Below are positions 12,635 to 31,985 of a DNA stretch of 32,000 bases, piece by piece. A program made the position numbers and the translations under genes. The number at the start of each line of letters is the position of its first letter. Position 1 is the first letter of the stretch. The notes under the pieces are model-generated. The model made no database searches, was not told the DNA's origin, and saw only the letters and a list, made by a program, of their open reading frames with translations. Location of the stretch: positions 29,096 through 61,095 of the forward strand of contig JAOTZM010000001.1 in the NCBI GenBank assembly GCA_029861345.1, in the 5' to 3' direction. This stretch comes from Nitrosopumilus sp. (GTDB lineage: Archaea; Thermoproteota; Nitrososphaeria; Nitrososphaerales; Nitrosopumilaceae).

Positions 12635-12772
12635 CTAAAAGCTTCTACTACGATGTTTTGGTAAACACTCTCGACAATAAACTGGTCTTCCTTCCTTTGG
12701 TTCAAAAGGAACTTCAGATTCTTTACCGCAGTCTGAGCATGTACATTTGTACATTTTTCTGTCTTCTGACAT
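12635..12772 (-). CDS. Small CxxC-x17-CxxC zinc-ribbon protein (45 aa)
   Basis: My own translation: MSEDRKMYKCTCSDCGKESEVPFEPKEGRPVYCRECLPKHRSRSF. The spacing is exactly C-x2-C-x17-C-x2-C with the VPF.P...RPVYC.EC core of the TIGR04272-type domain. It is below the ORF-track length cut-off. It is a paralogue of the repeat unit in 26145-26672. Confidence 0.7.
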   Translation of the reverse strand: MSEDRKMYKCTCSDCGKESEVPFEPKEGRPVYCRECLPKHRSRSF

Positions 12773-12954
12773 AATTTTATGGGATTTCTTACCTATAAGA
12801 AGGAATCACATTTTCATAAAAAAACTTAGAAATTCATTAGGTGGCCTGCTCAAAGAAAATAAAAAGTATGCAAAAAAATAAGAACCCGATTCTGAAAAAT
12901 AGTTATTGGTATCCGGTTAAAAAAATCAATTCAATCAAAAGCAAGTTACAAACG

Positions 12955-13872
12955 TCAAAATTCAGACTTTGCTTGATCTGCTTTTAATCCTTTGTAGCGA
13001 TTTCTTATGGTAACTTCTGTGACTCCTGCAGCTTCTGCAATGTCTCGCTGAGTAACAGATACTCCGTTATGAACACATGATAGATATAATGCAGATGCTG
13101 CAAGACCCATAGGATCCTTCCCAGCTGATTCTTTACGTTCTTGTGCCTTTTGGAGAACTTTAATTGCATATCGTTTTGTTTTTTCTGTAATCTCAAGTTT
13201 GCTTGAAATTCTAGCAATACATTGAACTGAATCGACAACAGGCATCTTGAGCTCTAATTCATGATGTAGTAATCTGTAACATCTTGCAATATCTTTGCGT
13301 TTAACATTAGCAGCATCAGAGATATCTTTTAGAGTTCTAGGTGTTTCAGTATCTCTACAGGAAGCATAAAGAGATGCAGCAATCATTGCAGAGATAGATC
13401 TTCCACGAACTAACTTTTTCTCCAAGGCCTTTCTGTAAATGTAAGCAGCTTTCTCAAGAACATTTGCAGAAACTGAAACCTTGTCTTTTAATTTATTTAA
13501 TTCACTTAGTGCTTGTCTCAAATTTCTATCAACAGGTTCATGAACTTGACTCCTACTGTCCCATGTCCTGAGTCTTTCAATGGTGCTTTTCATAGAGGTA
13601 GAAAGTGGTTTTCCTGATGCATCCTTGTTTAATGGATTGATAACAGTCGATAACCCCATATCATGTATTGTAAGTGATGATGGGGCACCAGTTCTAGCAG
13701 GATCTGAACCACCAGTTTTTTGAAATGATCTCCATTCTGGTCCTGACTCTTGTGATTTTTCAGAAATAACATAACCACATTTTGAACAAAATTGTTCTCC
13801 TGTAACTTCATCAGTCAATAAAGAATTTTTTCCACAACGCAGACAATTAGAATTTGGTTCGAAAGTAGTCAT
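12955..13872 (-). CDS. tfb: Transcription initiation factor B (TFB/TFIIB)
   Basis: 305 aa. N-terminal zinc ribbon (CLRCGKNSLLTDEVTGEQFCSKCG) followed by two cyclin-fold repeats typical of TFB. Confidence 0.95.
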   Translation of the reverse strand: MTTFEPNSNCLRCGKNSLLTDEVTGEQFCSKCGYVISEKSQESGPEWRSFQKTGGSDPARTGAPSSLTIHDMGLSTVINPLNKDASGKPLSTSMKSTIERLRTWDSRSQVHEPVDRNLRQALSELNKLKDKVSVSANVLEKAAYIYRKALEKKLVRGRSISAMIAASLYASCRDTETPRTLKDISDAANVKRKDIARCYRLLHHELELKMPVVDSVQCIARISSKLEITEKTKRYAIKVLQKAQERKESAGKDPMGLAASALYLSCVHNGVSVTQRDIAEAAGVTEVTIRNRYKGLKADQAKSEF

Positions 13873-22093: not shown

Positions 22094-23416
22094 ATGGTAT
22101 TGCAGCAATTTGCAAATACGCATTCAATGCGAAACGAAATCCTGAATCTAATGGTGCAAAAAGGATTAGAAGACGATTATTATGTAGAGATGTTAGATTA
22201 TACCATTGACTTGTTTGAGAGCCAGGGTCTTGGAACGGAATACTACGGGTATCATAACATCAATCATGAATTAGAAGTAACATATGTCTCACTTTTAGCT
22301 ACAGATCAAGATAAATTTCAATTCACTAATGAAGATATAAAGTATCTATACATTGCAGCATTGTTTCATGATTTTGATCCTCAAAAAAATGTAGATAAAC
22401 CACATGAGGAAAGTGTTCTAAGGTTTATCTCAATGGATAGAAAACTCCGCCAGTTAATTAACACAGCAAATATTGATTTAGAAATTATTAAGGTCTTGAT
22501 TTTAAGAACAACATACCCTTGGAGTGGAGAACTTAAAAAAAATGCGGAGGTACAAATCAAACAATGCTTCCAAAATTCAGATTTAACAAAAAACAATCAA
22601 CAATATCAACAACACGTCATGGAAATGGGATGGTATCTATCAGTAGTAGATAGAATTAGCGGTTATGCATTAGGGGATTTTGTAAAAGCAATGGAGATGG
22701 CAAAGATGAATGCTCACGCGCTTGCATGGAGGCCATCATTAATTGTAAGAAGCGCAGTAGCATATTTTGAGGAATTATTAAACAAAGAAACAGAAATGGC
22801 AAAAGGGATCCTCAAGGCTCTTCCAAAGGAGATGAGAAAGAATTTTTTTGATACAGTACTATCATTTATGAAAATCAGGCAACAGGAGATTACTATTCAA
22901 GCAGATTACTCTTATGAAAATCTCAAGCTAGTCCCTATAATAGAATGTATGACAACAAGAGAAGACTCAAATTTCATCAAGACATTATATGAGATCTTTT
23001 TAGAGTTACCAACACCCCTGCAATTTGAAAAAGAAAAATTCGAAGAATCAGTTAAAGATCCACAGATAATCATTAACACACTTAGACTAAATGATAAAAA
23101 CGGAGAGATTGTAGGATTTTCGAAAGGAGGACCACTTGAAAAATATAAGCTTCGCGAAGAGATTAGAGATGAAAATTATGGTCTTAGAAACACGATATTT
23201 CTTGAACCACTAGCACTAAAGATGGGGTATTGGGGACTAAAAGGAGGAAGCGAGATGCGTCATATGTTTATCATGCAATCTCACTCTATGAAGTACAAAT
23301 TTCTAACAAGTTTTGCATTGCGAGATGTCATCAGGTCAAGAATAGACAGAGAACAGGCAGAGTTTGTGACACTATTTGATCCTGAGAGATGGGATTACTA
23401 TAGAATCAAAGTTTAG
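22094..23416 (+). CDS. Hypothetical protein with an N-terminal HD-like metal-dependent phosphohydrolase motif
   Basis: 440 aa. H..H...(HD) pattern: YHNINHELEV ... AALFHDFDP. The C-terminal half may have an acyltransferase-like fold (weak impression only). Confidence 0.5.
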   Translation: MVLQQFANTHSMRNEILNLMVQKGLEDDYYVEMLDYTIDLFESQGLGTEYYGYHNINHELEVTYVSLLATDQDKFQFTNEDIKYLYIAALFHDFDPQKNVDKPHEESVLRFISMDRKLRQLINTANIDLEIIKVLILRTTYPWSGELKKNAEVQIKQCFQNSDLTKNNQQYQQHVMEMGWYLSVVDRISGYALGDFVKAMEMAKMNAHALAWRPSLIVRSAVAYFEELLNKETEMAKGILKALPKEMRKNFFDTVLSFMKIRQQEITIQADYSYENLKLVPIIECMTTREDSNFIKTLYEIFLELPTPLQFEKEKFEESVKDPQIIINTLRLNDKNGEIVGFSKGGPLEKYKLREEIRDENYGLRNTIFLEPLALKMGYWGLKGGSEMRHMFIMQSHSMKYKFLTSFALRDVIRSRIDREQAEFVTLFDPERWDYYRIKV

Positions 23417-23425
23417 ATTCATCAT

Positions 23426-24877
23426 ATGAACAAATCAATTCTAAAATCACTACAGCCAACAATTAAAGGAGATGTTTTTTCTCAAAAGGAATTCAGAGAA
23501 TTTTATTCTGTGGATGCAAGCTCATACCAAATAATTCCAAAAGTAATAGTAATTCCAAAAAATGAAAAAGATGTAATTAATGCAGTAAGGATTGCAAATA
23601 AATTCAAAACATCAATTACCGTACGAGGTGCGGGAACAGGGCTTGTCGGAAGTGCATTAAACAAGGGAATAATTCTGGATATGAAGAATTTTGTTTCGTG
23701 TAAACTTGCCAAAGATAGTGTAATTGTAGGTCCAGGCACAATTAAAGGCAAACTTGACAGGAAACTAGAGGAGTGTCAAAAGTTTTTTCCACCTAATCCG
23801 TCAATTGGTTCTTTTTGCTCAGTTGGTGGAATGTTAGGAAATAATTCCAGTGGAAGCAGAAGTCTAAAGTATGGAAGTGTTATTGATAATGTCTTAGAAA
23901 TTACATTTGTTGACGGCAATGGAAACAAGATTACTCTTCCAAAAAATAAAAGAGTTGCAGAAAAGATTTTAGGGTTTACCAAAAAAATTGATAAATGTGG
24001 ATTCCCAAATGTTACAAAAAACTCTTCAGGGTATAGAATTGACAAAGTAAAATCAATTAATGATGCTCACAAAGTAATCATAGGTTCTGAAGGAACATTA
24101 GGTATTGTTTTATCAGCAAAACTGAAAATCAGGAATAACCCAAAAAAGAGAATTCTTTTTGTAATAGAGTACAAATCAATTATGGATGCCTCAAAAAATT
24201 GTATTGAGATCAATAAAACAGAGCCATCTGCAATGGAATTTGTAGATAGAACGACACTTAATCAAATAAAATTCAAATTTAACAAGAAAACAAAATGTTT
24301 ACTTTTTGTAGAGTATGATGAAAATATTAGTTTTAATGAAAAGAAATTAAAAATAATATCTACTGGAAATATTATTAAGATATTTAAAAAAAAGGCTGAA
24401 ATTTCTCAGTGGTGGAAATATAGAGATCTATCATTGTATTATAGTTTAAAATCAATAAAAAAAGAGAAACGAGTTCCACATGTAATTGAAGATGCTGCAG
24501 TCCCTTTGGAGAGTCTTCCAAAATTATTTACAATTTTAAACAAGATAAACAAAAAATATAAAACTAAATCAATTGCTTATGGACACATAGGAAACGGAAA
24601 TATTCATTTCCGTTTGGTTTCAGATAGAAAAAAAATTGTTGCCATAAAAAATATCGCAACACAGTACTTTGAGGAAATAATCAAGCTCGGTGGAACCATA
24701 ACTGCTGAACACGGAGATGGTCTTGCTCGCTCAGAATTTGTCAGAAGACAGTATGGTGCAAAGAACTATGAAGTATTCAAAGAAATCAAAAAATTCTTTG
24801 ATCCAGAAGATATACTCAATCCAGACAAAATAATCACAAAGAAAAGTACCATTATAGAAAATCTAGAAAAGTTCTAA
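23426..24877 (+). CDS. FAD-linked oxidase (GlcD / D-lactate dehydrogenase-like, FAD_binding_4 family)
   Basis: 483 aa. FAD-binding PCMH-type motifs (VRGAGTGLVGSA, GGMLGNNSSGSRSLKYG, GSEGTLGIV) and a C-terminal block AEHGDGLARSEF. Confidence 0.85.
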   Translation: MNKSILKSLQPTIKGDVFSQKEFREFYSVDASSYQIIPKVIVIPKNEKDVINAVRIANKFKTSITVRGAGTGLVGSALNKGIILDMKNFVSCKLAKDSVIVGPGTIKGKLDRKLEECQKFFPPNPSIGSFCSVGGMLGNNSSGSRSLKYGSVIDNVLEITFVDGNGNKITLPKNKRVAEKILGFTKKIDKCGFPNVTKNSSGYRIDKVKSINDAHKVIIGSEGTLGIVLSAKLKIRNNPKKRILFVIEYKSIMDASKNCIEINKTEPSAMEFVDRTTLNQIKFKFNKKTKCLLFVEYDENISFNEKKLKIISTGNIIKIFKKKAEISQWWKYRDLSLYYSLKSIKKEKRVPHVIEDAAVPLESLPKLFTILNKINKKYKTKSIAYGHIGNGNIHFRLVSDRKKIVAIKNIATQYFEEIIKLGGTITAEHGDGLARSEFVRRQYGAKNYEVFKEIKKFFDPEDILNPDKIITKKSTIIENLEKF

Positions 24878-24948
24878 TTTATTTAAAGTTAAAATCAAAA
24901 ATATCAATTCAGAAACGCTTTATTAACAAAAAAATTGTCCAAAATACT

Positions 24949-25377
24949 GTGTTAAGTAAGGCTATAGGAGTATTAACAATTTTACTAGTATTTACTATTA
25001 GTTTTACCCCGGTATTTGCATCAACAGAATTACAAAGAGCAACGATAAGTGATCCAAGATTAGAAAACTTTTTTGGTTCACAAATAGTGGATAATGTGAA
25101 TGTAAATCAACAAATTCAAATCTCATCTGACATTACAAATCTTCAAGAAAAATCCCAAGCATTTGTGTATCTTGTCCAAATAAAAAATAAAGTAGGTTTT
25201 GTTGTTTCATTGGGATGGATTAGTGGACAATTAACACCAGATCAAAAACTTAGTCCGTCATTATCATGGGCTCCCGATAAGGAAGGAGAGTTTACTGCAG
25301 AAATTTTTGTATGGGAAGGACTGATAAACCATAGTGCATTATCTGAATCTACAACATTACAAATCAACGTCAGTTAA
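24949..25377 (+). CDS. Hypothetical secreted protein (142 aa)
   Basis: GTG start. Signal peptide (LSKAIGVLTILLVFTISFTPVFAS). I recognise no family. Confidence 0.55.
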   Translation: MLSKAIGVLTILLVFTISFTPVFASTELQRATISDPRLENFFGSQIVDNVNVNQQIQISSDITNLQEKSQAFVYLVQIKNKVGFVVSLGWISGQLTPDQKLSPSLSWAPDKEGEFTAEIFVWEGLINHSALSESTTLQINVS

Positions 25378-25574
25378 AATTTTTGACAAGATAAATTAGA
25401 TTGCAAATTAATTTATTATTTAAGAAATTCGAATAATTTGTTCCTAAATTTATCAAAAAATATCCGATATGGAAAAAATTGTTGTGAAACCTAACAATCA
25501 AGATCGCAGATTTGCCTCTTAGTGAAAAAAATTCAACAAGGTCTCGCTAATAGGACCTCAAGCCAAGTGCAGTT

Positions 25575-25718
25575 ATGACAATAGGATATTGTGTTAAGTG
25601 CCGAGATAAACGCGACATCAAAGGTGCTAAACCATACACCATGAAAAATGGTAAACCTGCAATTAAGGGCACATGCCCAACATGCAGTACTGCCATTTTC
25701 AGAATAGGTAGAGGATAA
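25575..25718 (+). CDS. Small zinc-ribbon protein, DUF5679-like (47 aa)
   Basis: My own translation: MTIGYCVKCRDKRDIKGAKPYTMKNGKPAIKGTCPTCSTAIFRIGRG. The pattern CxxC...KNG(K/R)PA.KG.CP.C.T..FRIG matches DUF5679 as recalled. It replaces the antisense 76-aa track ORF at 25533-25763. Confidence 0.7.
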   Translation: MTIGYCVKCRDKRDIKGAKPYTMKNGKPAIKGTCPTCSTAIFRIGRG

Positions 25719-26138
25719 ATTTCTCAGAAAAAATCCAGAACTACCATTCAACAGTAGAGCCATTCCAAGGCAAATGATTGGGGATGGATCTTTTTCTATT
25801 TCTTCTATAATTCTATTTTTTTAAAAAAAATTCTAAAGGAAACGTTCCAACATCAACTCCCACCGCTTCAATTTTGAAAAACCATGTATTGCCAGATACC
25901 CCTGTAAAATAGATATTTAGTAAGCAGAATACGACTTAAATTCTTAATTTATTGAAATTTGTTTTGAAATAATTTTTGTGTTATCGGTCATATTGACGCG
26001 TAAACATATCTGATTATTCCATCCATGAATATTTTTTTGTTCATCAATTTCTCAACAACATTTTAAAATTTTATACAATGGTTTAATTACAGTACAGTTT
26101 CACCACAATTTTAGAAAGACTTGTCATTTGATAGAGAA

Positions 26139-26664
26139 AGAGAGATGTTTACTGCAACATGTGGTGACTGTGGTAATGAATGCCAAATACCATTCAGACC
26201 AAAAGATGACAGACCTGTTTATTGCAACGAATGTTTCCCAAATCATAAGCCACAAGATAGTGGCAGATCTAGATTTAGTAGAGGATCAGGTTATGGTAGA
26301 AATGACAGAGGTTCTAGGTTTAGAGGTTCAAGAGATGACAGACCCAGAGAGATGTTTACTGCAACATGTGGTGACTGTGGTAATGAATGCCAAATACCAT
26401 TCAGACCAAAAGATGACAGACCTGTTTATTGCAACGAATGTTTCCCAAATCATAAGCCACAAGATAGTGGCAGATCTAGATTTAGTAGAGGATCAGGTTA
26501 TGGTAGAAATGACAGAGGTTCTAGGTTTAGAGGTTCAAGAGATGACAGACCCAGAGAGATGTTTACTGCAACATGTGGTGACTGTGGTAATGAATGCCAA
26601 ATACCATTCAGACCAAAAGATGACAGACCTGTTTATTGCAACGAATGTTTCCCAAATCATAAGC
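26139..26664. repeat. Perfect 207-bp tandem repeat, 2.54 copies (units start at 26139, 26346 and 26553), inside a coding region
   Basis: Read by eye, copies 1 and 2 are identical over all 207 nt. Copy 3 is identical until position 26664, where it diverges into ...CAAAATTAA (stop). The period of 207 nt equals 69 codons. Confidence 0.9.
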
Positions 26665-26672
26665 AAAATTAA
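26145..26672 (+). CDS. Triple CxxC-x17-CxxC zinc-ribbon protein with two Arg/Gly/Ser-rich linkers (175 aa from the ATG)
   Basis: There are three copies of MFTATCGDCGNECQIPFRPKDDRPVYCNECFPNHK (C-x2-C-x17-C-x2-C, TIGR04272-type as recalled). They are separated by PQDSGRSRFSRGSGYGRNDRGSRFRGSRDDRPRE. The track starts at TTG 26121, but the first ATG is at 26145. Confidence 0.8.
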   Translation: MFTATCGDCGNECQIPFRPKDDRPVYCNECFPNHKPQDSGRSRFSRGSGYGRNDRGSRFRGSRDDRPREMFTATCGDCGNECQIPFRPKDDRPVYCNECFPNHKPQDSGRSRFSRGSGYGRNDRGSRFRGSRDDRPREMFTATCGDCGNECQIPFRPKDDRPVYCNECFPNHKQN

Positions 26673-26753
26673 AAAAATGTTTTGAGCAACCCTTAATACA
26701 GCATAATTTTATCAAAACAAAGATTTAGAATTATTCATCAATATCTAACACTA

Positions 26754-26951
26754 TTGGATTCAACACCTTCAAGAGATAAAATAAAAATCAGAGTAAAGGT
26801 ACAGATAATACAAAAACAAGATCAACGTACAGGGAATTTGACTGAGGGCACGGTTAAAAGAATTCTTACTTCAGATAATTTTCATCCTCATGGAATTAAG
26901 GTAGAGTTGACAGACGGAAGAATAGGACGTGTTCAAAAAATAATATCATGA
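26754..26951 (+). CDS. YwbE/DUF2196-family small protein
   Basis: 65 aa. KQDQRTGNLTEGTVKRILTSDNFHPHGIKVELTDGRIGRVQKI closely follows the B. subtilis YwbE pattern (KKDQRTGKLT.G.VK.ILT....HPHGIKV.L.DG..GRVQ.I, recalled). TTG start. Confidence 0.75.
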   Translation: MDSTPSRDKIKIRVKVQIIQKQDQRTGNLTEGTVKRILTSDNFHPHGIKVELTDGRIGRVQKIIS

Positions 26952-27048
26952 CTTTGAACTCATCATTTTATTAGAGTTAGGTATAAAAACTAAAATAATT
27001 AATTTAAAAGTCTAGCCAAATTTGGTAGTAATGAAAAATAAAAAGAGA

Positions 27049-27423
27049 TTATTTTAAACGTCGGTAGATCTCTTTGAATTCAACTGAAAGATTGTATGAC
27101 AGGTTAAGCAAATGAGCTAGTTGATTCATTGATGTCTTATCATGTCCTAGTTGTCTTAATAGAGTCAAGGCTTTTTGGGGAGAACTTACAAAGAGGGGAC
27201 TTTGACCAGACCAAGTCTTGAAGGCATCTTCTACATCCAAGCAGAAATTCAAAACAAATTCCCTCCAATTTGGCATTGCTTTAAGTGCCTTTTCACTAAG
27301 AAGCACTTGTGACAATTCGCGAAATTCATTTTTTCTATCTATGTACAACATCTCAAGGGTTTGATGGATTTTTTCTTCCTCGTATTCTCCCGTATTTAGC
27401 ATATACATGCCGATGGTACTCAT
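27049..27423 (-). CDS. Hypothetical protein (124 aa)
   Basis: ATG-initiated ORF that looks helical. I recognise no family. Confidence 0.5.
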   Translation of the reverse strand: MSTIGMYMLNTGEYEEEKIHQTLEMLYIDRKNEFRELSQVLLSEKALKAMPNWREFVLNFCLDVEDAFKTWSGQSPLFVSSPQKALTLLRQLGHDKTSMNQLAHLLNLSYNLSVEFKEIYRRLK

Positions 27424-27546
27424 GGATTAATTTTCTCATGATCAAAGATAAATCGGGTAGTTGATTTTCTAAAAATTTGTAAGATTTTTTTAATTAAAAT
27501 TAACAAATGTAAAGATTCCAAAAAATAAGAAAAAAGAGATTAGATC

Positions 27547-28800
27547 TTATTGGAACGGATCAATAAATGGACAATTAACAATGTGGTCACTATCCATTGG
27601 ACGTGCAATACCAATATCGATCAAACCAGCTTCTCTGTATGCGTTCATATCATCAATGGTTTCTAACAGTTGAGCATTTTCAGGAGTATTCCATCCTATC
27701 ATAAAGATTCTCCACATTGGTGAATAGTTTACATCACCTGGAGCTCCTGCTGCTATTCCAGGTTGGAATCCCAATGGACCAGTTCCTGTTATGCCATTTC
27801 TGAATTGATACAGGTCTACAGCTGCTGAATTTGCAATCAAGCTTGCAGATGTTGGTGCACTTACAACTCCCATCATTTCGGCAGGACCACTTGGAGTAGC
27901 ATCTGTTACAATGTAATAGATTGTTCTACCATCTGGGCCCCATCCACGATGAGCAATGAAAGTTACATTCATCTCTTCTGTATCGATATCAAGAACTTGT
28001 CCACCACCATAAGGTGTCTCATCAGTCAAAGTTTTATCTTCTTTAACCATTATCTGACCTTCAGGCCAAATAATTTGTGGCATGTTCAAAACTACATCAA
28101 TTTCTGTTAATGTAATCTGTCCGTTATCAGCTGCTGTCATAATCATTTCTTCTGAGTCAAGTACTCTAGATGATACTCCTTCATTCCATGTAACATGGAC
28201 ATGTGAAGTCAATGCACTGTACATCTCTGCTTGTGCAGGAGTACTTGTAAAGACTTCACCTTGGAAACCATGAACACCATCGCCTTCAATGCCGTTGGTG
28301 AACATGTAAGTTGTTGAAAGTGCTGCATCTGGAGCATTCTTCAATAAGGGTGCAAGCTCTACTTGCCAGCCCTGATTTTTTGTAATGATTTCTGCATGTG
28401 TAGGGTCACTAGAGTCAGTGATGATAAAGTAAACATCTTCACCGTTGTAGTATCCTTGATGCAGTGGAATAGTTGCTGGAACGTTTGCTCTTGATAATCT
28501 AAGTACAGAACCCAAGTCTGCCTCAGTTACTGCTTCTTCATGAGTATCTTCCATCTCATCTATCTCTTCAGTAACTGTTGCTTCAGGAGTTGGTTCTTGT
28601 TGTGCCTTCCATGCAGCTTTACCACCTGGAATTTCAGAACATAACTGTAATCCACATACATTAGTACTAGAACCGTACTTTGAGGATCCAACACCTTGGC
28701 TTTTTAGAGCCTCAGCATCTGTGAAATAATCAGTTCCCAATCCTGCTGTAAACAAGGGGAGAATTGCAAGAATTGCAATGTATCTTAGACTCTTGTTCAT
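27547..28800 (-). CDS. Secreted protein of unknown function with an internal duplication
   Basis: Signal peptide (MNKSLRYIAILAILPLFTAGLG) and a VCGLQLCSE motif. The two homologous halves are ..IPLHQGYYNGEDVYFIITDSSDP..YMFTNGIEGDGVHGFQGEV.. and ..FIAHRGWGPDGRTIYYIVTDATPS..YQFRNGITGTGPLGFQPGI..NYSPMWRI. Confidence 0.7.
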   Translation of the reverse strand: MNKSLRYIAILAILPLFTAGLGTDYFTDAEALKSQGVGSSKYGSSTNVCGLQLCSEIPGGKAAWKAQQEPTPEATVTEEIDEMEDTHEEAVTEADLGSVLRLSRANVPATIPLHQGYYNGEDVYFIITDSSDPTHAEIITKNQGWQVELAPLLKNAPDAALSTTYMFTNGIEGDGVHGFQGEVFTSTPAQAEMYSALTSHVHVTWNEGVSSRVLDSEEMIMTAADNGQITLTEIDVVLNMPQIIWPEGQIMVKEDKTLTDETPYGGGQVLDIDTEEMNVTFIAHRGWGPDGRTIYYIVTDATPSGPAEMMGVVSAPTSASLIANSAAVDLYQFRNGITGTGPLGFQPGIAAGAPGDVNYSPMWRIFMIGWNTPENAQLLETIDDMNAYREAGLIDIGIARPMDSDHIVNCPFIDPFQ

Positions 28801-28851
28801 ATGTAGAAAAATTCAATTTCTCTTTAAAAGAATTTATCCAAATCAGACATT

Positions 28852-29475
28852 TTATCCCGGAAGTTCGGAGAATCGATTTCCCACATAATCCCAGTTAACA
28901 ATATTCCACCATGCATTAACATAGTCTGGCCTTCTATTTTGATATTTTAGATAGTATGCATGTTCCCATACATCCAATCCCAACAAAGGTGTTTTTTGAA
29001 GAGTCCAAGGACTATCTTGATTGGTGGTTGTAATGATTTCAATTTTGTTATAAGTCTGATTAAAAACCAACCAACACCAACCACTTCCCTGAATTAAATT
29101 TGCTTTTTCTGAAAAAACTTTTTTGAATTTTTCAAAATCACCAAAATAAACATCAATTGAATCTTCTAATTTTCCTCCAGGATAACCACTACTATTTGGA
29201 GTCATGATTTCCCAGAACAATCTATGATTCTCAAAACCTCCACCAAAAAAATTGACTGCACTTCTTCCTGATTCAGGAATTGAGTTTAGATCTGATAGTA
29301 TCGATGAGATATACTGGGGATGTGATGCACCACCAATTTGCTCAAGGGATTTGTTAAGCCCATCAACATATGCTTGATGATGATGCTGATGGTGAATTCT
29401 CATTGTTTCTGAGTCAATGAACGGTTCTAGTTCAGCATAATCATAAGGCAATCTTGGAAGTTCATATCGAACCAT
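28852..29475 (-). CDS. sod: Fe/Mn superoxide dismutase
   Basis: 207 aa. LPYDY..LEP.I....M..HH.HHHQAYV at the N-terminus and DVWEHAYYLKYQNRRPDY at the C-terminus are the classic Fe/Mn-SOD signatures. Confidence 0.95.
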   Translation of the reverse strand: MVRYELPRLPYDYAELEPFIDSETMRIHHQHHHQAYVDGLNKSLEQIGGASHPQYISSILSDLNSIPESGRSAVNFFGGGFENHRLFWEIMTPNSSGYPGGKLEDSIDVYFGDFEKFKKVFSEKANLIQGSGWCWLVFNQTYNKIEIITTTNQDSPWTLQKTPLLGLDVWEHAYYLKYQNRRPDYVNAWWNIVNWDYVGNRFSELPG

Positions 29476-29636
29476 AAATCAAATAATTTGTATCCACATA
29501 TATTTTTGAAGAGTAAAAGTCAAATCTAGTGTTTAATAAATTTCATTTTCAGGCAATCTTACTTAAAAGAATAAGTCTTCAGAAAACATCCAAAATGGGA
29601 TTTCAAAAAGGAAAGCATGATAAATCTTGCATGTAA

Positions 29637-30260
29637 ATGAATAATATGAGAAAACTAGGGACTGTGGATTTGGAAATTTTACATTTGGCAATTAAAGAAA
29701 ACGGAACATTTAATGAAAACAGTCTAGAGAATTCAGAGTTAAAGAGATTAGGGGTTGGAAGAATTCTTGATGTACTTGCGTCATTAAAAGATCGAAAACT
29801 AATATCATTAAATAATGATGGCTCTTTTTCTATCACAAATTTTGCTCAAGAGATACTTTGGAGTAATAACGTTCCAACCTGGGGGAAAATTTTACGGCTT
29901 CTTCAGATAAAGTCTTGTAGTATGAACCAGATTGTTGATATTCTAGGAATATCAGAAGACATACTGCTTGAAGATGTTGAAAAATTGAGGAAAAATCAAT
30001 TTATTCTAATGTCACCACAAAGAAAAGAAGGTAAACTTGTGAAAATTTACGAAATACTATCTGAAGGAATAAATGAAATGGATAAGACAGAAACGGAGGG
30101 ATTTAACAATACCAATTTTGGAGAATTCAAGCCAGAAGTTGAGATTCTAAGCTTAATTGACAATTTAATGAAAGAGATTCAAGATTCTCAATTAGACCAA
30201 CCAAAAAAAGATACCATCATTAGAAAATTATCTAAACTAAAAGACAAATTAGAGATTTAG
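29637..30260 (+). CDS. Hypothetical protein, possibly with two winged-helix DNA-binding domains
   Basis: 207 aa. wHTH-like segments: LEILHLAIKENG...RILDVLASLKDRKLISL and MNQIVDILGISEDILLEDVEKLRKNQFILMS. The C-terminus is a coiled coil. This is a weak call. Confidence 0.4.
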   Translation: MNNMRKLGTVDLEILHLAIKENGTFNENSLENSELKRLGVGRILDVLASLKDRKLISLNNDGSFSITNFAQEILWSNNVPTWGKILRLLQIKSCSMNQIVDILGISEDILLEDVEKLRKNQFILMSPQRKEGKLVKIYEILSEGINEMDKTETEGFNNTNFGEFKPEVEILSLIDNLMKEIQDSQLDQPKKDTIIRKLSKLKDKLEI

Positions 30261-31985
30261 TTATTTTGAACGGATTTTGTCTTGTATCTGAGCTAAGATA
30301 AGCTCGGCTTTGTTCTTGTTTTCATAGTTATCGGCGGATTCATCAATAATTTCATCAATCTCATAGCTCTTATCTACCAAAATATTTGCAACGTGATCAT
30401 CTAATGTTCCGTTTCCTATCAAATAATATGCAAAGACAGTATTTTGTTGACCAATTCTGTGAAGTCTGTCTTCGGCTTGCCTGTGGATTGCAGGACTCCA
30501 ATCAAGTTCTGCAAAGATGACATATTTTGCTCGAGTCAAATTAATACCAACGTTTCCTGCACGAAGACCTGCAATCATCAGTTTTGATTCACCTTTTTGA
30601 AATTTATCAATCTGATCTTGTCTAAATGAATCGGATTGTCCCCCAATAATAGACACGGGAAAGAATTCTTGAAGACTTTCATGAAGCAGTTTATGAATTA
30701 CCTTATGATGACAAAATACCACAACACTTTCTTCAATCTCCATAATATTTTTAACAAAATTAATTACATGAGGTAGTTTGGCAACCCCTGCAATCTGTCT
30801 TTCACTTTGAATAGCTCTATGATACGATGCAGATTTTGAGAATTCTGTTTCCGCAACCTTTTGTTCTTCTTCAAGTTTCTTCCAGATTTTATCAAGTTCT
30901 TCTAGATAGTAATCAGTATTAGATGCAATGACTTCTTTGTAACGAACCTTATCTTTGAGTTCTTTTAGGACGTCAGATTTTTTCCTTCTAAGCATCACAT
31001 GTTTTTGTAATTCGTTTCTAAGTGAAGCTCTTTTATTTTCTAAAACAATAGCTTTACCCTTTTCATTGACATAGCAAAAGTATTCACAGAATTCCTTAAA
31101 ACTTCCCAGAAGACCAGGTTTTATAATGTCAATAATTGGCCATATTTCAGAACCTCTATTGTAAATAGGAGTTCCAGAAAGGCCTATTCGATACAAAACC
31201 GAAGGCAATGCAGCCAGTTTTTTGACGGACTTGTATTTCTGAGTAGTTTTTGATCTTAGATTATGTACCTCATCACATACAATGGTTTTAATTCCAAGTT
31301 TTGCCAGGTCATCATATCTTTTGAAAAGTAATTCATAATTAATTACATAAATATCAGACTTTGGAAGGTCCTTAGACTTTCCTGTTCGAATAAGGGTGAC
31401 ACTAGGAGATTCAGATTCAACCAATCTACCATTTCTGCTCTTTTTCTTTAGGAACTTTCCAATCTCTCGTTCCCAATTGTTCAATGTAACTAATGGTGCA
31501 ACAACAAGTGTAGGAAATGTTTGTTTTTCAGTAGCTACATATGATAATGTCTGTACAGTTTTTCCAAGACCCATTTCATCTGCTAGTAAAGCATTGCCAG
31601 AAGATTTTAGTAAAAAGTCTAGTCCCTCTTTTTGGAAATTCAAAAGCTTTCCTCGGAATTGTCCACCAGTTTTTGCACGCTTTAGTTTGTGTTTTATTGG
31701 AGGCAACGTAGGTTTAGGTGCAAAAGTCTTTACAATTTTTCTTTGCCATGTAGATTTTGATAAAATTTCGAGTGGATATCTATCCATGATGAGTTTTATT
31801 TGTTTTACACTTTCAGTACTATCAGGGATGATCACTTCATTTACGTTTTCTCCATACCAAGCTTCAGGAACCAACCTTGAAATCATATTAACGGCACGAT
31901 CACCAGTGATTTTCCAGCTCCAGATTTTAGAATATTTATCAAGCACATATTCTAACGTGCCAATATTTTCCATGGTTGTTTCCAT
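30261..31985 (-). CDS. SNF2/SWI2-family helicase-like ATPase
   Basis: 574 aa. Motif I LADEMGLGKTVQ, motif II DEVHNLRS, motif III LSGTPIYN, and C-terminal helicase motifs AGNVGINLT and DWSPAIHRQAEDRLHRIGQ. Confidence 0.9.
   Translation of the reverse strand: METTMENIGTLEYVLDKYSKIWSWKITGDRAVNMISRLVPEAWYGENVNEVIIPDSTESVKQIKLIMDRYPLEILSKSTWQRKIVKTFAPKPTLPPIKHKLKRAKTGGQFRGKLLNFQKEGLDFLLKSSGNALLADEMGLGKTVQTLSYVATEKQTFPTLVVAPLVTLNNWEREIGKFLKKKSRNGRLVESESPSVTLIRTGKSKDLPKSDIYVINYELLFKRYDDLAKLGIKTIVCDEVHNLRSKTTQKYKSVKKLAALPSVLYRIGLSGTPIYNRGSEIWPIIDIIKPGLLGSFKEFCEYFCYVNEKGKAIVLENKRASLRNELQKHVMLRRKKSDVLKELKDKVRYKEVIASNTDYYLEELDKIWKKLEEEQKVAETEFSKSASYHRAIQSERQIAGVAKLPHVINFVKNIMEIEESVVVFCHHKVIHKLLHESLQEFFPVSIIGGQSDSFRQDQIDKFQKGESKLMIAGLRAGNVGINLTRAKYVIFAELDWSPAIHRQAEDRLHRIGQQNTVFAYYLIGNGTLDDHVANILVDKSYEIDEIIDESADNYENKNKAELILAQIQDKIRSK

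What the first reader, a model, noticed from the sequence alone, without database searches (positions are those of the whole stretch)
26139..26664. Nucleotide-perfect 207-bp tandem triplication building a three-zinc-ribbon, RG-linker protein
The 207-bp (69-codon) unit encodes one CxxC-x17-CxxC ribbon plus a 34-35-aa Arg/Gly/Ser-rich linker (SGRSRFSRGSGYGRNDRGSRFRGSRDDRPRE, RGG-box-like). It is repeated 2.54 times with zero mismatches as read by eye. The array ends precisely after the third ribbon. A single-ribbon paralogue of only 45 aa sits at 12635-12772, so the ancestral state is probably one ribbon. Zero divergence implies a very recent expansion or ongoing concerted evolution, so copy number is likely polymorphic between cells or strains. 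It is also prone to collapse or expansion in short-read assemblies. Multivalent zinc ribbons joined by RGG-like disordered linkers are an architecture associated with RNA binding and condensate formation in eukaryotes. The function of this archaeal/bacterial domain family is unknown. The gene sits in a run of small putative nucleic-acid-binding proteins: DUF5679-like at 25575-25718 and YwbE-like at 26754-26951.
Basis: partly seen in the sequence, partly recalled or inferred. Interest (0 to 1): 0.65.

Follow-up and report, generated by a model that had tools for sequence, protein, structure and literature searches.

The report
Recently triplicated archaeal zinc-finger gene repeat
A small zinc-finger gene of a marine ammonia-oxidising archaeon (Nitrosopumilus) normally encodes two identical zinc-binding modules but here encodes three, apparently through one very recent in-frame duplication; this kind of change recurs in the gene family and is mildly interesting, not exceptional.

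Summary
Window 26139-26664 is a 207-bp unit repeated 2.54 times with no mismatch, inside one ORF (26121/26145-26672, + strand). The ORF encodes three CxxC-x17-CxxC modules (Pfam PF23477 zf_Tbcl_2, NCBIfam TIGR04272) joined by two identical Arg/Ser/Gly/Asp-rich linkers that are predicted to be disordered.

The interpretation needs correcting. This is the orthologue of a conserved Nitrosopumilaceae gene that almost always has two ribbons and one linker, so the ancestral state of this gene is two ribbons, not one. The 45-aa single-ribbon gene, on the minus strand, belongs to a separate conserved family.

Sister populations (94-99% flank identity) carry a two-ribbon allele with a 112-nt perfect direct repeat spaced exactly 207 nt apart. 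One unequal crossover or slippage event between those repeats gives the 526-nt array seen here. Four of five ribbon substitutions between alleles are shared by all copies within an allele, which is direct evidence of concerted evolution. Independent three-ribbon arrays at 98-100% identity occur in at least three other lineages.

Copy number rests on what appear to be short-read MAG assemblies, so three is the assembled value, not a proven one. Zinc binding has been shown for Methanosarcina homologues. Nucleic-acid binding is inferred. Novelty is modest.

The parts
26121..26672 (+). Gene for a 183-aa protein (TTG start; an alternative ATG at 26145 gives 175 aa) with three CxxC-x17-CxxC zinc modules and two linkers
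   Evidence: ORF list. PF23477 x3 and TIGR04272 x3. Orthologues have ATG at the TTG position and the same N-terminus.
26139..26664 (+). Perfect tandem array: 207-bp unit x 2.54 (ribbon-linker-ribbon-linker-ribbon)
   Evidence: TRF: 100% matches, 0 indels. Identical in L085 and L001.
26139..26249 (+). Zinc module 1 (REMFTATCGDCGNECQIPFRPKDDRPVYCNECFPNHK)
   Evidence: Pfam and NCBIfam stretches. AF2 shows a hairpin plus a short helix; single-module pLDDT 87.7.
26250..26345 (+). Linker 1 (PQDSGRSRFSRGSGYGRNDRGSRFRGSRDDRP), R/S/G/D-rich, predicted disordered
   Evidence: pLDDT below 50 for residues 43-74. Composition.
26346..26456 (+). Zinc module 2, nucleotide-identical to module 1
26457..26552 (+). 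Linker 2, nucleotide-identical to linker 1
26553..26663 (+). Zinc module 3, identical to modules 1 and 2, followed by QN-stop
26081..26090 (+). GTTTAATTAC, the core of an upstream block that is nearly invariant across genera; probably the promoter (TATA-like) element of this gene
   Evidence: Alignment of 18 upstream regions. The functional assignment is inferred.
26754..26951 (+). YwbE/DUF2196 gene, the conserved downstream neighbour
   Evidence: TIGR03833 E 2.6e-27. Present about 85 nt downstream in about 20 related loci.
12635..12772 (-). 45-aa single-module paralogue, a member of a separate conserved single-ribbon family
   Evidence: ORF. PF23477 E 1.9e-18. 149 homologues, all single-module.

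Best explanation
**What it is.** This is a real protein-coding gene. It is the Nitrosopumilus orthologue of a conserved two-module zinc-finger gene of the CxxC-x17-CxxC family (PF23477/TIGR04272). In this population it has gained a third module.

**How the array arose.**
1. In the ancestral allele the two modules are kept nucleotide-identical by intragenic gene conversion.
2. That leaves a 112-nt perfect direct repeat spaced 207 nt apart.
3. One unequal homologous crossover, or one replication slippage event, between these repeats added exactly one [linker + module] unit (207 bp, 69 codons, in frame).
4. The product is ribbon-linker-ribbon-linker-ribbon, with no time yet to diverge.

This accounts for the perfect identity, for the 2.54 copies, and for the array ending precisely after the third ribbon.

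**Inferred function.** Each module is taken to bind one Zn through its four cysteines. The basic, disordered linkers and the family-wide association with RGG-like and histone-H1-like tails suggest a multivalent nucleic-acid-binding protein, most likely RNA-binding, whose valency changes with module number.

**Shown here:** the repeat, family membership, the two-module ancestry, concerted evolution, and recurrent independent expansions.
**Inferred:** the recombination mechanism, zinc binding by this particular protein, and nucleic-acid binding.
For: - **Repeat and domains:**
- **Two-ribbon orthologues:** nearly all Nitrosopumilaceae species representatives have two ribbons, including long-read chromosomes OZ244732, OZ253671 and CAXXKU01. 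Of the 80 best homologue clusters, 69 have two ribbons.
- **Sister alleles:** L083, L084 and L089 have two ribbons, the same linker and both unique flanks.
- **Matching geometry:** L083 has its ribbon direct repeat spaced 207 nt start to start, which equals the window's period (112 nt of perfect identity follows).
- **Concerted evolution:** L083 differs from the window at ribbon positions 62, 90 and 96 in both copies. L089 differs at position 66 in both copies and has one private change. Within-gene ribbon identity is 100% in long-read L026 and L036, although these are at most 96-99% identical to ribbons of other species.
- **Independent expansions:** unit lengths equal the local linker spacing in L002 (213 bp, 99%), L086 (231 bp, 98%) and L087 (207 bp, 100%, different sequence). 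Units that are not identical cannot be assembly loops.
- **Zinc binding:** shown for M. mazei family members (PMC12704099).
- **Structure prediction:** modules fold and linkers are disordered.
- **Family context:** members carry RGG and AKK-rich tails.
Against: - All three contigs with the three-ribbon allele (the window, L001, L085) are identical. They appear to come from one short-read MAG project (2x150 Illumina, metaSPAdes/MEGAHIT, PMC10720571). This provenance is inferred from the accession series.
- A 319-nt perfect self-overlap cannot be spanned by 150-nt reads, so the exact copy number could be 2, 3 or more.
- L001 starts 63 nt upstream of the repeat, and L082 starts inside a linker, which shows a tangled assembly graph at this locus.
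- No direct evidence of nucleic-acid binding exists for any member of the family.
- Fold searches found no significant structural relative.
- Gene neighbourhood (YwbE, function unknown) gives no functional lead.
Confidence: 0.7

Rival explanations
1. Assembly artefact or wrong copy number. The organism has the ordinary two-ribbon gene (or more than three ribbons), and the assembler traversed the ribbon-linker loop an arbitrary number of times.
For: - The data are probably short-read MAGs (inferred).
- Contig ends pile up at this gene: 16 of 80 loci against about 2 expected.
- L001 begins 63 nt upstream of the array and L082 begins inside a linker.
- L012/L016 and L002/L060 are split or collapsed versions within single MAGs.
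- The three supporting contigs are 100% identical and may share reads.
Against: - Three assemblies give the same three-ribbon structure, and two of them (the window and L085) have both flanks.
- 150-nt reads can span the 112-nt ribbon together with both linker edges. A linker-ribbon-linker path therefore needs read support, which only an allele with at least three ribbons provides.
- Three-unit arrays with a few differences between units (L002 at 99%, L086 at 98%), and a multi-unit array in a contig whose name and 495-kb length suggest a long-read assembly (L088), show that such alleles really exist in this family.
Confidence: 0.2
2. An ancient, stable three-ribbon architecture kept identical purely by purifying selection on protein and codons, with no recent duplication.
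For: - The ribbons are strongly conserved. L089 ribbons are 98-99% identical to the window's while the flanks are only 93-94% identical.
- Some distant relatives have three diverged ribbons: P0005 and P0009 at 69-83% amino-acid identity between ribbons.
Against: - The closest relatives have two ribbons.
- The two low-complexity linkers, which are highly variable between species, are also nucleotide-identical here.
- Synonymous differences between alleles are shared by all copies within an allele. Selection on the protein cannot produce that pattern.
Confidence: 0.03
3. The gene and its origin are as described, but the function is different. The modules would serve as zinc storage or buffering sites, or as protein-protein adaptors such as a transcription-machinery cofactor, and would not bind nucleic acid.
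For: - Zinc binding is the only demonstrated activity in the family. The authors of that study speculate about transcription, because TFIIB-type ribbons have a similar Cys spacing.
- Some database entries are named 'DNA-directed RNA polymerase'.
- The window's single-ribbon paralogue lies just downstream of a TFB gene.
Against: - The TFB adjacency is not conserved (L090).
- The RNA polymerase name has no support from Pfam or NCBIfam.
- Arg-rich disordered linkers and H1-like AKK tails across the family are typical of nucleic-acid binders. This is correlation only.
Confidence: 0.25

Closest known systems
CxxC-x17-CxxC domain family (NCBIfam TIGR04272 cxxc_cxxc_Mbark; Pfam PF23477 zf_Tbcl_2), including the eight small proteins of Methanosarcina mazei
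   Same: Same domain, well above the curated cut-offs: 176.6 bits against a cut-off of 36, and 174.4 bits against 27. Same Cys spacing and the conserved PF.P...RPVYC core. Zinc binding was shown for two M. mazei members (PMC12704099). Multi-module members with 2-5 ribbons and Arg/Gly-rich flanks are common.
   Different: The M. mazei proteins are single-module small proteins. This gene is a two-module orthologue expanded to three modules with no nucleotide divergence. I found no paper describing concerted evolution or copy-number change in this family.
Minisatellite-like zinc-finger arrays of animals (PRDM9, KRAB-ZNF genes), which evolve by unequal crossover and gene conversion (from my own knowledge)
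   Same: In-frame tandem units each encode one zinc module. Units are homogenised within a genome. Copy number changes between close relatives.
   Different: Unrelated fold (C2H2), 84-bp units, many more copies, and meiotic recombination. Here the unit is 207 bp including a disordered linker, there are 2-3 copies, and the organism is an archaeon. No role in DNA-sequence recognition is known.
Eukaryotic ZnF-plus-RGG RNA-binding proteins (FUS/EWS/TAF15, ZRANB2, with RanBP2-type zinc fingers) (from my own knowledge)
   Same: Small Cys4 zinc modules are embedded in Arg/Gly-rich disordered segments. Orthologues of this gene carry GAR-like GGRFGGRSGGYGG linkers.
   Different: No sequence or profile similarity to zf-RanBP. 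No structural match. This allele has no RGG tripeptide. RNA binding and condensation are untested.
Intragenic tandem-repeat (VNTR) genes of microbes, such as yeast FLO adhesins and bacterial surface proteins (from my own knowledge)
   Same: Long, near-perfect, in-frame repeats whose number changes by recombination or slippage, and which break short-read assemblies.
   Different: Those are mostly surface proteins under diversifying selection. This is a small, basic protein with no evident signal peptide or membrane segment (judged by eye; no predictor was run), a strongly conserved module sequence and only 2-3 units.

Membership tests
PF23477 zf_Tbcl_2 / TIGR04272 CxxC-x17-CxxC domain | Profile HMM score above the curated cut-off | tested here: met
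   PF23477 174.4 bits (cut-off 27), 3 stretches. TIGR04272 176.6 bits (cut-off 36), 3 stretches.
PF23477 zf_Tbcl_2 / TIGR04272 CxxC-x17-CxxC domain | CxxC, exactly 17 residues, CxxC | tested here: met
   Three exact motifs at 26160, 26367 and 26574.
PF23477 zf_Tbcl_2 / TIGR04272 CxxC-x17-CxxC domain | One zinc ion bound per module | not testable with these tools
   Shown by ICP-MS for two M. mazei homologues (PMC12704099). Inferred for this protein.
RGG/GAR box | Clustered RGG (or RG) repeats | tested here: not met
   The linker has 0 RGG, 3 RGS and 5 RG/GR dipeptides. Orthologues such as P0054, P0056 and P0094 do have GGRFGGRSGGYGG.
Nitrosopumilaceae two-ribbon orthologue group | Shared N-terminus, conserved upstream block, and YwbE downstream | tested here: met
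   M-S/P-F-D-R-E-R-E-M-F N-terminus. Upstream AGTTTAATTAC...GAAAGAC-ATG block. YwbE follows in about 20 loci.
Concertedly evolving intragenic tandem repeat (VNTR) | Copies within a genome are more alike than orthologous copies between genomes, and substitutions are shared by all copies | tested here: met
   4 of 5 ribbon substitutions among the window, L083 and L089 alleles are present in every copy of an allele. The intragenic partner is the nearest neighbour in about a dozen species.
Concertedly evolving intragenic tandem repeat (VNTR) | Copy number differs between close relatives | tested here: met
   3 ribbons in the window, L001 and L085. 2 ribbons in L083, L084 and L089, which have 94-96% flank identity. 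Caveat: these appear to be short-read assemblies.

The most novel reading that the evidence does not exclude
The CxxC-x17-CxxC family would be an archaeal (and CPR-bacterial) counterpart of eukaryotic ZnF-RGG RNA-binding proteins. The number of zinc modules, and therefore the binding valency or condensate-forming propensity, would be tuned on ecological time scales by recombination between homogenised modules. Ribbon number would then be a selectable, rapidly switching trait in ammonia-oxidiser populations.
Probability: 0.1. Interest if true: 0.7.

Novelty: new member of a known kind. Interest (0 to 1): 0.35.

Why it matters
**For annotation and population genomics.**
- This conserved small gene of abundant marine ammonia oxidisers is a recombination-prone locus. 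It is systematically broken, collapsed or possibly mis-counted in short-read MAGs.
- Its true start here is probably a TTG, which one gene call on record missed (P0001, 175 aa from the internal ATG; another call, P0121, used the TTG).

**For biology.**
- It is a clean natural series of one, two and three or more identical zinc modules joined by disordered basic linkers.
- The family is abundant at the protein level in methanogens, binds zinc, and has no known function.
- The series therefore offers a ready-made valency set for testing RNA or DNA binding.
- It also documents intragenic gene conversion in Nitrosopumilaceae.

None of this overturns current understanding.

Tried and rejected
- **PDB sequence search** with the full protein gave only chance-level hits to MCM and L31 zinc sites (E at least 0.09).
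- **Rfam and tRNA scans** of the whole window found nothing.
- **Promoter and terminator scan:** the sigma-70 scan is uninformative for an archaeon. Its only repeat-associated output is a 5-bp palindrome on the minus strand inside each full unit.
- **TFB linkage.** I considered that the single-ribbon paralogue's position next to TFB might indicate a transcription role, but the adjacency is absent in L090. One look-up (P0201) found no record.
- **Metagenome scan** with the exact 5' junction returned only one further contig, L089 with two ribbons. Population-level copy-number frequencies could therefore not be measured.
- **Literature searches** for the family identifiers found nothing. The only functional paper is the M. 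mazei study.
- **Shared origin of the three-ribbon arrays.** I considered that L002 and L086 share the window's triplication and rejected it. Their unit lengths (213 and 231 bp) and their sequences differ from the window's unit and from each other. For L002, the ribbon type (NECKIPF...CNECFQNHK) also groups with the two-ribbon proteins P0013 and P0017.
- **Second ORF.** The frame +2 ORF at 26128-26685 (185 aa) is rejected as a by-product of the repeat. It was not scanned against the family libraries; the coding frame is set by the PF23477/TIGR04272 matches of the other frame.

Full report
**1. Observation**

Tandem Repeats Finder finds a single strong array at 26139-26664: period 207, 2.5 copies, 100% matches, no indels, score 1052. 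It lies inside one ORF on the + strand, from 26121 (TTG) or 26145 (ATG) to 26672.

The protein has three identical modules, REMFTATCGDCGNECQIPFRPKDDRPVYCNECFPNHK. They are joined by two identical linkers, PQDSGRSRFSRGSGYGRNDRGSRFRGSRDDRP. The modules match Pfam PF23477 (zf_Tbcl_2, 'probable treble clef zinc finger', 174 bits, 3 stretches) and NCBIfam TIGR04272 (CxxC-x17-CxxC domain, 177 bits, 3 stretches).

The 45-aa single-module gene at 12635-12772 exists but is on the minus strand.

**2. Source and copies of the locus**

The window is a Nitrosopumilus MAG contig.
- L085 (GCA_029860825.1) is 100% identical over window 22290-27166 and has the same three modules with both flanks.
- L001 (GCA_029862225.1) has one mismatch in 5,925 bp, but its contig begins only 63 nt upstream of the array.

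The neighbouring accession series carries 'SF_Bin' isolate names. The San Francisco Bay MAG paper describes 2x150 Illumina reads assembled with metaSPAdes and MEGAHIT (PMC10720571). I therefore infer short-read origin; this is not proven for these exact records.

**3. Orthologues have two modules**

A protein search gave 3,324 relatives. Most close Nitrosopumilus and Nitrosarchaeum orthologues are 105-120 aa and cover 63% of the query, meaning module-linker-module.
- In GTDB species representatives, essentially all Nitrosopumilaceae orthologues have two modules, including those in long contigs and complete chromosomes (OZ244732, OZ253671, OZ244579, CAXXKU01). Only L002 has three.
- Of the 80 best homologue clusters, 69 have two modules and 11 have three. 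Ranking by bit score favours the three-module ones.
- The orthologues share the N-terminus M-S/P-F-D-R-E-R-E-M-F, with ATG where the window has TTG 26121.
- They also share a strikingly conserved upstream block, AGTTTAATTAC...GAAAGAC-ATG.
- In about 20 loci they have YwbE about 85 nt downstream.

The ancestral state of this gene is therefore two modules. The 45-aa gene belongs to a distinct, widespread single-module family.

**4. Sister alleles and mechanism**

The 90%-identity cluster of the window protein contains a 106-aa two-module member, P0122. It is encoded on:
- L083 (ENA, k141 contig, both flanks);
- L084 (JGI 3300022220, both flanks);
- L082 (GCA_029860705.1).

A metagenome scan with the 5' junction found a third two-module allele, L089. 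Flank identities to the window are about 96% for L083 and L084 and about 94% for L089.

In L083 the two modules form a direct repeat with start-to-start spacing of 207 nt, which is exactly the window's period; 112 nt of it are perfectly identical. One unequal crossover or slippage event between these repeats would add one 207-bp unit. That gives 2 x 207 + 112 = 526 nt, the observed array. It also explains why the array stops right after the third module.

**5. Concerted evolution**
- Relative to the window module, both L083 modules carry the same three changes: position 62 A>G (K>R), position 90 A>G and position 96 C>T.
- Both L089 modules carry T66C, and one of them has a private C69T.
- Four of five variable sites are therefore homogenised across all copies within an allele.

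Across species, within-gene module identity ranges from 86% to 100%. It is 100% in L026 and L036, whose ribbons are at most 96-99% identical to those of other species. In other species the first and second modules keep position-specific signatures (FTATC...NEC against FDAKC...NDC). This indicates episodic gene conversion on an old two-module gene.

**6. The expansion is recurrent**

Independent arrays with unit lengths matching the local linker occur in:
- L002 (213 bp, 99%);
- L086 (231 bp, 98%);
- L087 (207 bp, 100%, Nitrosopelagicus-like sequence);
- L088, in the long paralogue, on a 495-kb contig that looks long-read from its name and length (183 bp, 98%).

Arrays whose units differ slightly cannot be loop-traversal artefacts. 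Some relatives (P0005, P0009) have three well-diverged modules, so three-module forms can persist.

**7. Assembly caveat**

The gene lies within 100 nt of a contig end in 16 of 80 related loci, against about 2.1 expected. L082 starts inside a linker. L012/L016 and L002/L060 are split or collapsed versions within single MAGs.

A 150-nt read can span one 112-nt module plus both edges, so a linker-module-linker path implies at least three modules. The exact number cannot be verified here. I put about 0.2 on the assembled copy number being wrong.

**8. Structure and function**

The only experimental data are from Methanosarcina mazei. Eight CxxC-x17-CxxC small proteins were detected with high confidence, and two were purified and shown to bind zinc. 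Their function is unknown, and a role in transcription was only speculated (PMC12704099).

An exhaustive profile search finds 7,273 representative clusters with up to five modules per protein. Many have RGG-rich flanks. CPR-bacterial members have histone-H1-like AKK-rich tails.

On this basis I infer a multivalent zinc-module protein that binds nucleic acid, most likely RNA. This is inference only. The window's own linker has no RGG tripeptide.

**9. Verdict**

The feature is real and correctly described. Its origin is a very recent 2-to-3 module expansion of a concertedly evolving, conserved archaeal zinc-finger gene. It is a new allele of a known family that shows a known evolutionary mode. 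Interest is modest.

Noticed in passing
window 26031-26123: The upstream region of the gene is unusually conserved across Nitrosopumilus and Nitrosarchaeum species. AGTTTAATTAC (window 26081-26090) and GAAAGAC just before the start codon are nearly invariant, while the sequence further upstream is unalignable. This is probably a strong promoter with a short leader. The window and L083 have TTG where the others have ATG (L086 has GTG).
   Followed up: partly
L082 against window 26410-31817: All 31 mismatches between L082 and the window fall in 26410-27017, covering the zinc-finger gene, YwbE and the intergenic spacer. The next 4.8 kb have none. This is either a homologous-recombination tract imported from the L083-like population or a chimeric MAG contig joining two co-occurring strains at the repeat.
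   Followed up: partly
L082 position 1-21; L012/L016; L002/L060; L068; L072: L082 begins with linker sequence (RDDRPRE) before its first module, which hints at three or more modules in that allele too. L060, L068 and L072 show one-module versions with the orthologous N-terminus (L060 is followed by YwbE). These could be reciprocal deletion products or collapsed assemblies.
   Followed up: no
window 26249-26264 and 26456-26471: A 5-bp-stem palindrome, GCCACAAGATAGTGGC, sits exactly at the module/linker boundary of each full unit, immediately after the point where homology with the terminal module ends. It could favour slippage. It was picked up only as a terminator-like site on the minus strand.
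   Followed up: no
window 26128-26685 (+, other frame): A 185-aa ORF without stops in a second frame overlaps the whole array. It has no family support and looks like a side effect of the repeat.
   Followed up: partly
L004, L037, L059, L063, L066, L073; P0004, P0010, P0028: Nitrosopumilaceae also carry a longer paralogue of about 300 aa. It has 1-3 modules, microsatellite-like linkers (for example DDRGSRYSR repeated many times, with an N-run gap in L037) and a C-terminal Cys-rich domain (CSSCGF...LCLNCN) that has no Pfam match. L055 and L056 end inside these linker repeats.
   Followed up: no
L043-L047, L051, L054, L064, L067: Heimdallarchaeota encode proteins with 3-4 modules, Ser/Arg-rich linkers and a divergent terminal module preceded by a conserved VERFGDRPGPYR segment. 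L046 carries two such genes close together.
   Followed up: no
P0265, P0275, P0289, P0302, P0324: Some two-module members have RGG-rich N-termini, a short predicted helical segment and Lys/Ala/Pro-rich histone-H1-like C-terminal tails. The genome loci with similar architecture (L053, L058, L062) are from CPR bacteria. This is an independent hint at nucleic-acid binding.
   Followed up: no
window 12635-13872 (-): The 45-aa single-module paralogue lies about 180 nt downstream of a TFB (TFIIB) gene on the same strand. The adjacency is not seen in L090, so it is probably coincidental.
   Followed up: partly
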